In this document: positions 21,169 through 24,100 of the stretch, piece by piece
How positions within the stretch are numbered: the stretch's first letter is position 1
How the letters are laid out: each line of letters starts with the position of its first letter
Virus record (IMG/VR): IMGVR_UViG_2711768002_000002
Strand: one strand, 5' to 3'
DNA length: 24,957 nucleotides
DNA from: a virus
Taxonomy: Duplodnaviria > Heunggongvirae > Uroviricota > Caudoviricetes
Position numbers: made by a program

Positions 21169-24100
21169 TCATCCTCTCCGGATAAGGCACGGGCGTAATC
21201 TGCCAGTGTTTTCTTGTTGGTTGCTGCACCATCCTCTTCCTGCAGGCTCGCCAGCAGTGCACTGAGATCCAGCTGCCAGCGGGAAATACTGATGCGCAGC
21301 GCCGCCAGCGCATAAACGAAGCAGTCGAGCGCCTCATTGCGTCGCTTTTTGCTGTCCCACAGTATTTTTTTCCTGCCATCCACCCATTTTTCGACCTGCT
21401 CTTCAGCAGTCAGCTGCTGCGCTTCGGTCAGATCAAAAATATCCGGGTTATTCGGGAAGTGAACGGCACCGGGAAGCGGTTCATCCCCTTCCGGCGTCAG
21501 TGTGAAGCGGTTATAAATCTGCTCTTTCGCGGTATCCGTACCGATTTCGGTAAGGTAAACCCCGTTTTTGTTTCGCTTACGAGGCATGCTGGCCACCGGC
21601 TTACCGTAGACGGATGCCCCTTTAATGGGGATCACCCGGAACAGCCCATGCTTTTTCGAGCGTTCATACACAATGGTCGGGTCAATCCCGCCAATATCCC
21701 AGCAGATACGGGATATCGACATTTCTGCACCATTCCGGCGGGTATAGGTTTTATTGATGGCCTCATCCACACGCAGCAGCGTCTGTTCATCGTCGTGGCG
21801 GCCCATAATAATCTGCCGATCAATCAGCCAGCTTTCCTCACCCGGCCCCCATCCCCATACGCGCATTTCGTAGCGATCCCGCTGGGAGTCGATACCGGCG
21901 GTCAGGTAAGCCACACGGTCAGGAACGGGCGCTGAATAATGCTCTTTCCGCTCTGCCATCACTTCAGCATCCGGACGTTCGCCAATTTTCGCCTCCCACG
22001 TCTCACCGAGCGTGGTGTTTACGAAGGTTTTACGTTTTCCCGTATCCCCTTTCGTTTTCATCCAGTCTTTGACAATCTGCACCCAGGTGGTGAACGGGCT
22101 GTACGCTGTCCAGATGTGAAAGGTCACACTGTCAGGTGGCTCAATCTCTTCACCGGATGACGAAAACCAGAGAATGCCATCACGGGTCCAGATCCCGGTC
22201 TTTTCGCAGATATAACGGGCATCAGTAAAGTCCAGCTCCTGCTGGCGGATGACGCAGGCATTATGCTCGCAGAGATAAAACACGCTGGAGGGGTCATCCG
22301 GCGTCCATTTGAGGCCAAACGGCGTCTCTTTGTCGCCAAATTTAAGATACTGCTCCTCCCCGCAGTGCGGGCAGGCAACATGAAAACGCATAAAATGCGG
22401 GGATTCACTGGCTGCACGCTCAATCTGGCAGGTGCCTCTCACTTTGGGCGTGGAGCCACGGATGGACTTTGGCCAGACCGAGCCTTCAATACGTTTGTCG
22501 CCAAGGAACGTCGGAGAGCCTTCCTGTTCAATATCCTCATCAAAGGCAGCAAGTTCATCATAACCCGCCACATCCACCGACTTTTCACGGTAGTTTTTTG
22601 CCGCTTTACCGCCCAGGCACCAGAAGCCACGACCATTGGAAAAACGCTTCATAGTGAGCGTGTTATCCCGGTGCTTTTTGCCATACCACGGAGCCAGCGC
22701 CAGCAGCGACGGAATATCGCGGATGGTCGGCTCAACGTGGGTTTTCATAAAGTTCTCGGCATCACCATCCGTCGGCAACCAGATAAGTGTGTTGCGCTGC
22801 TTATGCTCTATAAAGTAGGCATAAACACCCAGCAGCATTTTGGAATAACCGACACGGGCAGACTTCACCACATTCACCTCACGGATGTAGTCGCTGCCCA
22901 TCGCATTCATGATGGCCCGCTGAAAGGGCAGTGTTTCCCAGCGCCCTTCCTGGTATGCGGATTCTTTCGGGAGATAGTAATTAGCATCCGCCCATTCAAC
23001 GGCGGTCTGTGGCTCCGGCCTGAACAGTGAGCGAAGCCCGGCGCGGACAAAATGCCGCAGCCTGTTAACCTGACTGTTCGATATATTCACTCAGCAACCC
23101 CGGTATCAGTTCATCCAGCGCGGCTGCTTTGTTCATGGCTTTGATGATATCCCGTTTCAGGAAATCAACATGTCGGTTTTCCAGTTCCGGAAAACGCCGC
23201 TGCACCGACAGGGGGATCCCGTCGAGAATACTGGCAATTTCACCTGCGATCCGCGACAGCACGAAAGTACAGAATGCGGTTTCCACCACTTCAGCGGAGT
23301 CTCTGGCATTTTTCAGCTCCTGTGCGTCGGCCTGCGCACGCGTAAGTCGATGGCGTTCGTACTCAATAGTCCCTGGCTGGAGATCTGTCTCGCTGGCCTG
23401 CCGCAGTTCTTCAACTTCCCGGCGCAGCTTTTCGTTCTCAATTTCAGCATCCCTTTCGGCATACCATCTTATAACGGCGGCAGAGTCATAAAGCACCTCA
23501 TTACCCTTGCCACCGCCTCGCAGAACGGGCATTCCCTGTTCCTGCCAGTTCTGAATGGTACGGATACTCGCACCGAAAATGTCAGCCAGCTGCTTTTTGT
23601 TGACTTCCATTGTTCATTCCACGGACAAAAACAGAGAAAGGAAACGACAGAGGCCAAAAAGCCCGTTTTCAGCACCTGTCGTTTCCTTTCTTTTCAGGGG
23701 GTGTTTTAAATAAAAACATTAGGTTACGGCGAAGAAGAACGGAAACGCCTTAAACCGGAAAATTGTCATAAATAGCGAAAACCCGCGCGCCTTCCGCCCC
23801 GTAACCTGTCGGATCGCCGGAAAGGACCCGCAAAATGATAATAATTATCATCTACATGTCACAACGTGCATCTACGCCATCAAACCACGTCAAATAATCA
23901 ATTATGACGCAGGTATCGTATTAATTGATCTGCATCAACTTAACGTAAAAACAACTTCAGACAATACAAATCAGCGACACTGAATACAGGGCAACCTCAT
24001 GTCAACGAAGAACAGAACCCGCAGAACAACAACCCGCAACATCCGCTTTCCTAACCAAATGATTGAACAAATTAACATCGCTCTTGTTCAAAAAGGGTCC

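What the first reader, a model, noticed from the sequence alone, without database searches (positions are those of the whole stretch)
23788..23799. cosN core differs from the lambda cohesive-end sequence while flanking cos sequence is conserved
The sequences flanking the nick region (cosB R elements, the cosQ-side sequence, and the adjacent lambda right-end sequence) match lambda very closely. The 12-bp core itself reads CGCCTTCCGCCC (plus strand), where lambda in the same orientation has AGGTCGCCGCCC as I recall it; this corresponds to a cohesive end GGGCGGAAGGCG instead of GGGCGGCGACCT. Five of the first six positions differ and the rest is identical. Either this phage has variant cohesive ends (affecting mixed packaging or complementation with lambda terminase), or cosN has mutated in a decaying prophage.
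Basis: partly seen in the sequence, partly recalled or inferred. Interest (0 to 1): 0.4.

Follow-up and report, generated by a model that had tools for sequence, protein, structure and literature searches.

The report
Natural variant of lambda cohesive ends
This lambda-like prophage has a packaging cut site whose sticky end reads GGGCGGAAGGCG instead of lambda's GGGCGGCGACCT; it is a real, recurrent natural allele lying in the half of the site already known to tolerate change, so it is ordinary rather than a sign of decay or a new mechanism.

Summary
On the minus strand the window reads ...GGTTACG|GGGCGGAAGGCG|CGCGGGTTTTCGC... Cohesive-end positions 7, 8, 9, 10 and 12 differ from lambda. cosQ, the left half GGGCGG, both nick-flanking CG pairs, R3 at bp 50-65, R2, R1, and full-length Nu1 and A are all lambda-like.

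It is not a private mutation. The exact core occurs at 169 places in 158 of 5,426 complete E. coli genomes, about 2% of lambda-like cosN sites. It is also in 78 IMG/VR contigs, 23 N15-like plasmids and two phage records. One of these is PhiR46_1, an isolated temperate phage used in a plaquing panel.

The core sits on many left-flank haplotypes and at least three cosB types. It is paired with terminase large subunits 100% identical to ones paired with the lambda core, including lambda's own gpA.

Feiss et al. (2015) state that natural differences at bp 7-12 are common in lambda-like phages. They explain this by TerS bound at R3 positioning TerL for the bottom-strand nick. This is a further, more divergent allele of a known kind.

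Virion ends carrying this allele have not been mapped. I could not read the 2017 cosN survey, so I do not know whether this allele is already listed.

The parts
23823..23829 (-). cosQ (GGGTCCT), the packaging-termination element, at bp -29 to -23 relative to the first cohesive-end base
   Evidence: String location. Identical to lambda in alignment A1. The literature identifies cosQ as a highly conserved 7-bp site (PMC4669245).
23786..23801 (-). cosN, 16 bp: CG + 12-bp cohesive-end sequence + CG. Inferred nicks are top strand between 23800 and 23799, and bottom strand between 23788 and 23787.
   Evidence: Both nick-flanking CG dinucleotides are conserved. Nick positions are inferred from lambda (PMC9026076) and were not measured for this allele.
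23794..23799 (-). [quoted passage not shown]
   Evidence: In the unbiased IMG/VR scan only 1 of 120 contigs had a change here.
23788..23793 (-). [quoted passage not shown] This is the variant allele.
   Evidence: The exact core recurs in 158 E. coli genomes, 78 IMG/VR contigs, 23 plasmids and 2 phage records.
23765..23765 (-). bp 35 A-to-C substitution in the cosN-R3 spacer. It is a linked minor polymorphism with no known function.
   Evidence: In cos sites with lambda-type cosB, C occurs in 11 of 59 variant-core sequences and 1 of 82 lambda-core sequences.
23735..23750 (-). cosB R3 (AGGCGTTTCCGTTCTT), the critical TerS site, at bp 50-65 with the same spacing as lambda
   Evidence: The R3 extent of bp 50-65 comes from PMC9026076.
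23704..23726 (-). AT-rich segment between R3 and R2 that corresponds in position to the lambda I1 IHF site (approximate)
   Evidence: Position by alignment with lambda. IHF binding was not tested.
23676..23691 (-). cosB R2 (AGAAAGGAAACGACAG), in inverted orientation
23635..23650 (-). cosB R1 (CTGTCGTTTCCTTTCT)
23065..23610 (-). Nu1 (terminase small subunit, 181 aa), full length, 178/181 identical to lambda Nu1
   Evidence: The exact same protein is found next to both core alleles.
21165..23090 (-). A (terminase large subunit, 641 aa), full length, 637/641 identical to lambda gpA and 636/641 to PhiR46_1 TerL

Best explanation
This is a functional lambda-type cos site carrying a natural allele of the right half of cosN. 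Terminase small subunit (Nu1) binds R3, R2 and R1 of cosB, and IHF bends the I1 region. This anchors the large subunit (gpA) so that it nicks the bottom strand between bp 12 and 13 regardless of the bases at positions 7-12. A second gpA recognises the conserved left half (ACG|GGGCGG) and nicks the top strand. The expected product is a 12-nt 5' overhang, GGGCGGAAGGCG, which is as stable as lambda's when annealed to its own complement.

Because both ends of a chromosome come from copies of the same cos, changes at bp 7-12 are nearly neutral. They drift and move between phages by recombination. The AAGGCG allele is an established minor allele, at about 2% of lambda-like cos sites in E. coli. It is shared by integrated lambda-like prophages, N15-like plasmid prophages and satellite-like elements.

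Shown here: the sequence, its recurrence, the conservation of every other cos element, and the lack of terminase co-variation. Inferred: the nick positions, the overhang, and neutrality.
For: - The core and all other cos sub-sites are in lambda register.
- Counts with equivalent 38-mer queries, where every 28-nt seed spans the core: variant core at 169 places in 158 of 5,426 complete E. coli genomes, against the lambda core at 8,122 places in 4,282 genomes.
- 78 IMG/VR contigs and 23 PLSDB plasmids from E. coli, S. sonnei, E. albertii and E. fergusonii carry it. So does Escherichia sp. E1V33.
- Phage records PhiR46_1 and YDC107_1 (a Ravinvirus) carry it.
[quoted passage not shown] It appears in the strain table of a study that plaqued that panel.
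- The variant occurs with at least 3 cosB types and more than 30 left-flank haplotypes.
- Five contigs have the window's identical 312-bp cos haplotype.
- No TerL alignment column tracks the allele. The largest frequency difference is 0.27. Four TerL and four TerS sequences are shared 100% by both alleles. Lambda's own gpA equals the gpA of L273, which has the variant core.
- Nearest-neighbour duplex stability is -17.8 kcal/mol against -18.2 for lambda.
- Rare further right-half alleles exist in the same flanks: CGACCG, AGACCT, AAGGCT, CAGGCG, CAGACG, CTGACG and AAGCGT.
- Literature: differences at bp 7-12 are common among lambda-like phages (N15 and phiD326 at 9 and 12; Gifsy-1 at 8, 9 and 11). 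Right-half mutations have minimal effect (G2C lowers yield 10-fold, C11G has no effect) because cosB anchoring makes bottom-strand nicking insensitive to sequence (PMC4669245). The N15 end GGGCGGCGTCCG was verified in its record.
Against: - No virion ends with this sequence have been mapped. No phage record starts with GGGCGGAAGGCG.
- No cleavage or packaging assay exists for this allele.
- Five changes is more than any allele tested genetically, where two was the maximum.
- The variant creates a GCGCGCG run across the bottom-strand nick site, so the nick register is assumed rather than shown.
- The window's own prophage has private out-of-frame deletions in J and lom. Its cos may therefore never be used unless a helper supplies tails.
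- The PhiR46_1 small subunit differs from the window's at 13 of 181 residues.
- The allele shows partial linkage to cosB sites bp 71 and 97, so a subtle co-adaptation with cosB is not excluded.
Confidence: 0.85

Rival explanations
1. The core is a lesion that accumulated in a decaying, no-longer-packaged prophage.
For: The window's prophage has a private 140-nt out-of-frame deletion in J between 10-nt direct repeats, and an 83-nt out-of-frame deletion in lom.
Against: The identical core is present in hundreds of independent elements on different flanks and cosB types. These include an isolated plaque-forming phage. Five contigs share the window's whole cos haplotype. Nu1 through M are full length. 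Decay would not hit 5 of 6 adjacent bases while sparing cosQ, the left half, the CG flanks and R3, R2 and R1.
Confidence: 0.03
2. The two major alleles are maintained by selection as cohesive-end incompatibility classes. A chromosome with one lambda-type end and one variant end would pair at only 7 of 12 positions and cyclise poorly. This would isolate phages, plasmid prophages or satellites from mixed packaging.
For: There are two dominant alleles five differences apart, and the other right-half alleles, including one-step neighbours of each major allele, were found in only 7 contigs. A 2-bp end mismatch already costs about 4-fold in yield (PMC4669245). The shared left half alone gives about -8 kcal/mol against -18. 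The variant is enriched on plasmids: 16 of 169 places against 20 of 8,122.
Against: One-step neighbours of both alleles do exist, as drift predicts. The plasmid enrichment can be simple lineage inheritance in N15-like elements. Within one phage both ends always match, so there is no obvious selective pressure. No experiment bears on it.
Confidence: 0.1
3. The variant site is cut in a different register or gives a different overhang length, because the CG repeat GCGCGCG now spans the bottom-strand nick position.
For: The variant right half plus flank reads GG-CG-CG-CG-GG. The conserved feature next to the nick is a CG dinucleotide (PMC4669245).
Against: In lambda the nick position is set by the cosN-to-R3 distance (PMC4669245; PMC9026076). 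That spacing is unchanged here, with R3 at bp 50-65.
Confidence: 0.04
4. Sequencing or assembly artefact in the window.
For: The window is a draft-like sequence with three runs of N.
Against: The same 12-mer in the same context is found in many complete genomes and plasmids from unrelated projects.
Confidence: 0.01

Closest known systems
Phage lambda cos (cosQ-cosN-cosB; cohesive end GGGCGGCGACCT)
   Same: cosQ GGGTCCT, the spacer length, the ACG flank, left half GGGCGG, the CG after bp 12, R3 at bp 50-65, R2, R1, and Nu1 and gpA at 98-99% identity.
   Different: Cohesive-end positions 7, 8, 9, 10 and 12 (AAGGCG against CGACCT). There is also one spacer SNP at bp 35.
N15 / phiD326 cosN (GGGCGGCGTCCG)
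   Same: A natural right-half variant of a lambda-like 12-nt 5' cohesive end. It shares G12 with the window allele and has the left half unchanged (PMC4669245). Lambda TerL has been shown to use it as efficiently as lambda cosN.
   Different: Only 2 differences from lambda (positions 9 and 12), and 4 differences from the window allele. N15 itself has a simple cosB with R3 only. Many N15-like E. coli plasmid prophages carry the window's allele with a lambda-type cosB instead.
Other published right-half variants: Gifsy-1 (differs at bp 8, 9, 11) and mEp213/LLS (GGGCGGCGCGCT)
   Same: The same class of variation, confined to bp 7-12 (PMC4669245; PMC12315714).
   Different: Different bases and fewer changes. 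They belong to phages with more divergent head and terminase modules.
Survey of cosN in lambda-like phages (Vahanian, Oh, Sippy & Feiss, Virology 2017, 509:140)
   Same: The paper is devoted to natural cosN variation. It is cited for conservation of the first bases and the nick flanks.
   Different: It is not held in the library. I could not check whether GGGCGGAAGGCG is listed there.

Membership tests
Lambda-type cos site (12-nt 5' cohesive ends) | 7-bp cosQ GGGTCCT upstream of cosN at lambda spacing | tested here: met
   23823-23829, bp -29 to -23.
Lambda-type cos site (12-nt 5' cohesive ends) | Conserved CG dinucleotides flanking both nick positions, and conserved left half GGGCGG | tested here: met
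   CG|GGGCGG......|CG at 23786-23801.
Lambda-type cos site (12-nt 5' cohesive ends) | Complex cosB: R3 at bp 50-65, the I1 region, inverted R2, and R1, followed by the TerS gene | tested here: met
   R3 at 23735-23750, R2 at 23676-23691, R1 at 23635-23650, Nu1 ATG at 23610.
Lambda-type cos site (12-nt 5' cohesive ends) | Adjacent intact lambda-family TerS and TerL genes | tested here: met
   Nu1 is 181 aa and A is 641 aa. They are 178/181 and 637/641 identical to lambda.
Lambda-type cos site (12-nt 5' cohesive ends) | Staggered nicks 12 bp apart giving complementary 5' overhangs in virion DNA | not testable with these tools
   No phage record begins with this end. Virion end mapping is needed.
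Natural right-half (bp 7-12) cosN variants of lambda-like phages | Differences from lambda confined to bp 7-12, with the left half, nick flanks and cosQ unchanged | tested here: met
   Differences at 7, 8, 9, 10 and 12 only. The class is described in PMC4669245.
Natural right-half (bp 7-12) cosN variants of lambda-like phages | The allele is carried by viable phage rather than only by remnants | tested here: met
   The PhiR46_1 record carries it. PhiR46.1 is listed as an isolated temperate phage in a plaquing panel. The original isolation paper is not held.
Natural right-half (bp 7-12) cosN variants of lambda-like phages | No terminase specificity for the allele (the same TerL serves both) | tested here: met
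   Four TerL sequences are 100% shared between alleles, and no column is associated with the allele. This is sequence evidence only; no enzymology was done.
Mutationally decayed cos of a cryptic prophage | A private lesion, not shared with independent elements, accompanied by damage to other cos elements or terminase genes | tested here: not met
   The allele is shared widely. The other cos elements and Nu1/A are intact.

The most novel reading that the evidence does not exclude
The lambda-type and AAGGCG-type ends are two cohesive-end compatibility classes. Chromosomes or transducing and satellite DNAs cut at one type of cos at one end and the other type at the other end would pair at only 7 of 12 positions. 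They would largely fail to cyclise. The allele would then act as a cryptic barrier to mixed packaging among co-resident lambdoid prophages, N15-like plasmid prophages and cos satellites. Exchange of the allele would occur exactly at the nick sites through rare mismatched-end chromosomes.
Probability: 0.1. Interest if true: 0.4.

Novelty: new member of a known kind. Interest (0 to 1): 0.15.

Why it matters
It matters little for mechanism. [quoted passage not shown]

Practical points:
- Cos-end prediction and phage-termini tools that look for GGGCGGCGACCT will miss about 2% of lambda-like cos sites in E. coli. They will miss nearly half of those on plasmids.
- This allele, five mismatches from lambda, is a natural test case for how many cohesive-end mismatches cyclisation can tolerate.
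- The identical TerL proteins found with both alleles are natural evidence that the lambda endonuclease does not read the right half-site.

Tried and rejected
- **Terminase co-variation.** I aligned 94 TerL proteins found next to either allele. No column was associated with the allele, and identical proteins occurred with both. Rejected.
- **Origin by a small inversion.** The reverse complement of lambda bp 7-12 (AGGTCG), or of shifted windows, does not give AAGGCG. This was checked by inspection. Rejected.
- **Literature string search.** Searching for the 12-mer and its complement returned only unrelated plant and Streptomyces papers.
- **Papers not held.** Brenes & Laub 2025, Vahanian et al. 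2017 and Feiss et al. 2015 (Virology) are not in the library.
- **Genome-contig scan.** Most of the 104 hits were chance matches to the 17 specified bases. Only 11 were real cos sites, and one of these carried the variant.
- **Apparent disruption of the tail genes K, L and stf.** This turned out to be three runs of N in the window, not lesions.
- **Alleles with C or T at position 9 in the same flanks.** A scan found none. N15-type and mEp213-type cores therefore do not occur with this right flank in IMG/VR.
- **Count caveat.** Counts from 38-mer megablast are lower bounds, because they need a 28-nt exact seed and the left spacer is polymorphic.

Full report
**Observation**

Read on the minus strand, the window gives ...GGGTCCTTTCCGGCGATCCGACAGGTTACG GGGCGGAAGGCG CGCGGGTTTTCGCTATTTATGACAATTTTCCGG.... 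The 12-mer occupies 23799 down to 23788, exactly the coordinates in the finding.

A gap-free alignment from cosQ to the Nu1 start was made with phage lambda (PV340536), two lambda-core relatives and four other sequences. It shows that lambda has GGGCGGCGACCT in the same register.
- Cohesive-end positions 7, 8, 9, 10 and 12 differ. Positions 1-6 and 11 are the same.
- Against the closest lambda-core relative found (a prophage of E. coli UTAK-15), there are 5 differences in the 12 core bases and 1 in 224 flanking bases (Fisher p = 8e-7).

**The rest of the cos site**

All other cos elements are present in lambda register:
- cosQ GGGTCCT at 23823-23829 (bp -29 to -23).
- R3 AGGCGTTTCCGTTCTT at 23735-23750. 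This is bp 50-65, the extent given for lambda R3 in PMC9026076.
- Inverted R2 at 23676-23691 and R1 at 23635-23650.
- The Nu1 start at 23610.

Nu1 (181 aa) and A (641 aa) are full length. They are 178/181 and 637/641 identical to lambda's. All head genes and tail genes down to M are also full length relative to a close relative.

**Recurrence**

A 38-mer centred on the core, in which every 28-nt megablast seed must span the whole core, hits 169 places in 158 of 5,426 complete E. coli genomes. The equivalent lambda-core 38-mer hits 8,122 places in 4,282 genomes. The variant is therefore about 2% of lambda-like cosN sites. This is a lower bound for both, because the left spacer is polymorphic.

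The variant is over-represented on plasmids: 16 of 169 places, against 20 of 8,122 for the lambda core.

Other sources also carry it:
- PLSDB holds 23 plasmids with it. Most are 42-50 kb and non-mobilizable, from E. coli, Shigella sonnei, E. albertii and E. fergusonii.
- IMG/VR holds 78 contigs with the exact core.
- In an unbiased scan that left all 12 positions free, 115 of 120 contigs had the lambda core, 3 had the variant and 2 had single changes.
- One representative genome of another species, Escherichia sp. E1V33, has it.
- Two phage records carry it, YDC107_1 (genus Ravinvirus, that is N15-like) and PhiR46_1.

[quoted passage not shown] The listing is in the strain table of Saxton et al., who plaqued that panel of temperate phages related to lambda. 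The isolation paper itself is not held.

Five IMG/VR contigs have a cos haplotype identical to the window's over 120 + 12 + 180 bp, including the linked bp-35 C.

**Genetic background of the allele**

Among 84 variant-core sites, the downstream sequence falls into at least three cosB types:
- The lambda type with R3, R2 and R1 (59 sites).
- A type with CATGTCGG-like repeats and a different Nu1 N-terminus (18 sites).
- A type followed by a Nu1/Rpp-like gene with no adjacent TerL (4 sites).

Each type also exists with the lambda core. One example of the third type, L069, looks like a phage satellite. It has a D5-type primase, capsid-E-like and D-like genes, AlpA, cos, and then a Nu1-family gene.

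The variant core is found on more than 30 different cosQ-cosN spacer haplotypes, nearly always with cosQ intact. Within lambda-type cosB it shows partial but incomplete linkage to bp 71 and bp 97. One 300-bp flank haplotype carries both cores. The picture is of an established allele that has been moved around by recombination.

**Terminase**

In an alignment of 94 TerL proteins, no column tracks the core allele. The largest frequency difference is 0.27.
- Four distinct TerL sequences and four TerS sequences are shared at 100% identity by both alleles.
- Lambda's own gpA sequence is identical to that of contig L273. That contig's cos has the variant core and a cosB differing from lambda's at 2 of 190 positions.
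- The window's exact Nu1 occurs with both cores.
- PhiR46_1 TerL is 638/641 identical to lambda gpA and 636/641 to the window's.

There is no sign that the enzyme had to adapt.

**Mechanism**

The published genetics explain why. Feiss et al. (PLoS One 2015, PMC4669245) make the following points:
[quoted passage not shown] N15 and phiD326 differ at 9 and 12, and Gifsy-1 at 8, 9 and 11.
- cosQ, the left half and the CG pairs flanking the nicks are conserved.
- Mutations in bp 7-12 have minimal phenotypes. G2C lowers yield 10-fold, while the symmetric C11G does nothing.
- The asymmetry arises because TerS bound at R3 positions TerL for bottom-strand nicking, which makes that nick insensitive to sequence.
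- Lambda TerL uses cosN-lambda and cosN-N15 equally well.

I verified the N15 end (GGGCGGCGTCCG) in its record. Another published variant is mEp213/LLS, GGGCGGCGCGCT (PMC12315714).

The window allele fits this class exactly. All changes are in bp 7-12, and everything known to matter is untouched. Its predicted self-duplex stability is about the same as lambda's: -17.8 against -18.2 kcal/mol, with 10 of 12 G+C in both.

Further scans found rare additional right-half alleles in the same flanks: CGACCG, AGACCT, AAGGCT, CAGGCG, CAGACG, CTGACG and AAGCGT. Some are one step from each major allele, as expected for a weakly constrained segment.

**What is inferred and not shown**

Three things are assumed by analogy with lambda:
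- The nick positions.
- The 12-nt 5' overhang.
- Neutrality of five simultaneous changes.

No phage record begins with this end, so nobody appears to have mapped it in the collections I could search. The variant creates a GCGCGCG run across the bottom-strand nick. This is a minor reason to confirm the register experimentally, although the unchanged R3 spacing argues for the standard cut.

**The decay alternative**

The window's prophage does carry private lesions. There is a 140-nt out-of-frame deletion in J between 10-nt direct repeats (CATACAGCGC, window 7512-7521). There is also an 83-nt out-of-frame deletion in lom. The J junction was not seen as a single piece in the listed E. coli genome hits.

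This copy is therefore probably tail-defective. The cosN allele is clearly inherited and is not a product of that decay. Apparent breaks in K, L and stf are runs of N in the window.

**Novelty**

The kind of variation and its mechanistic explanation are published. This particular allele is the most divergent I am aware of, with 5 of 6 right-half positions changed. It did not turn up in full-text searches.

The dedicated survey (Vahanian et al. 2017) is not available to me. I therefore cannot say the allele is undescribed. I file it as a new or unremarked member of a known kind, with low interest.

The least ordinary reading still open is that the lambda-type and AAGGCG-type ends behave as incompatibility classes for chromosomes with mixed ends. 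Only 7 of 12 positions would pair, and a 2-bp mismatch already costs 4-fold. I give that reading about 10%.

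Noticed in passing
window 7512-7521 (J homologue, about 5064-8418, minus strand): A 140-nt out-of-frame deletion relative to relatives, between 10-nt direct repeats CATACAGCGC. It splits J into ORFs 7459-8418 and 5061-7565. The junction was not found as one piece in the listed complete E. coli genome hits, so it is probably a private inactivating deletion and this prophage copy is probably tail-defective.
   Followed up: partly
window about 4514-4519 (lom homologue, about 4477-4990, minus strand): An 83-nt out-of-frame deletion relative to the E. 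coli MLI023K1 prophage, at a short GCCAG repeat.
   Followed up: partly
window 3074-3194, 9328-9760, 10088-10207: Three runs of N (121, 433 and 120 bases) lie inside the stf, K and L homologues. They mimic gene disruptions in ORF lists, and their lengths do not match the sequence missing relative to relatives.
   Followed up: yes
E. coli complete genomes and PLSDB (no window coordinates): The variant core is strongly enriched on plasmids. It accounts for 16 of 169 variant places against 20 of 8,122 lambda-core places. The carriers are mostly 42-50 kb non-mobilizable plasmids that look like N15-like (Ravinvirus) plasmid prophages with a lambda-type cosB and Nu1/A.
   Followed up: partly
L069:1-6300 (IMG/VR contig 2645728091_000007): A satellite-like element with D5-type primase, capsid-E-like and head-decoration-like genes, AlpA, a cos with the variant core at 4113-4133, a Nu1/Rpp-like gene and no adjacent TerL, followed by an Abi_C gene. 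It sits next to a truncated lambda-like capsid gene. Similar elements exist with the lambda core (clusters 7 and 10).
   Followed up: partly
IMG/VR loci of cluster 4 (e.g. L234, L239, L259): A cosB type with CATGTCGG-like repeats and a different Nu1 N-terminal DNA-binding region is joined to a gpA about 99.5% identical to the window's. This suggests that packaging specificity is swapped by replacing only cosB plus the first part of Nu1. In my allele-biased sample, most members of this type carry the variant core.
   Followed up: no
Genome-contig loci L197, L202, L205 and L208: Cos regions with the lambda cohesive-end core and near-identical flanks (L197, L202 and L208 match one another exactly over the ~100 bp compared) appear in assemblies of unrelated organisms: Raphidiopsis brookii (L197), Aeromicrobium sp. 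(L202) and Archangium violaceum (L205). This most likely reflects lambda or cosmid-vector contamination of those assemblies.
   Followed up: no
window 23765: A bp-35 A-to-C change in the cosN-R3 spacer. It is almost confined to variant-core haplotypes: 11 of 59 against 1 of 82.
   Followed up: partly
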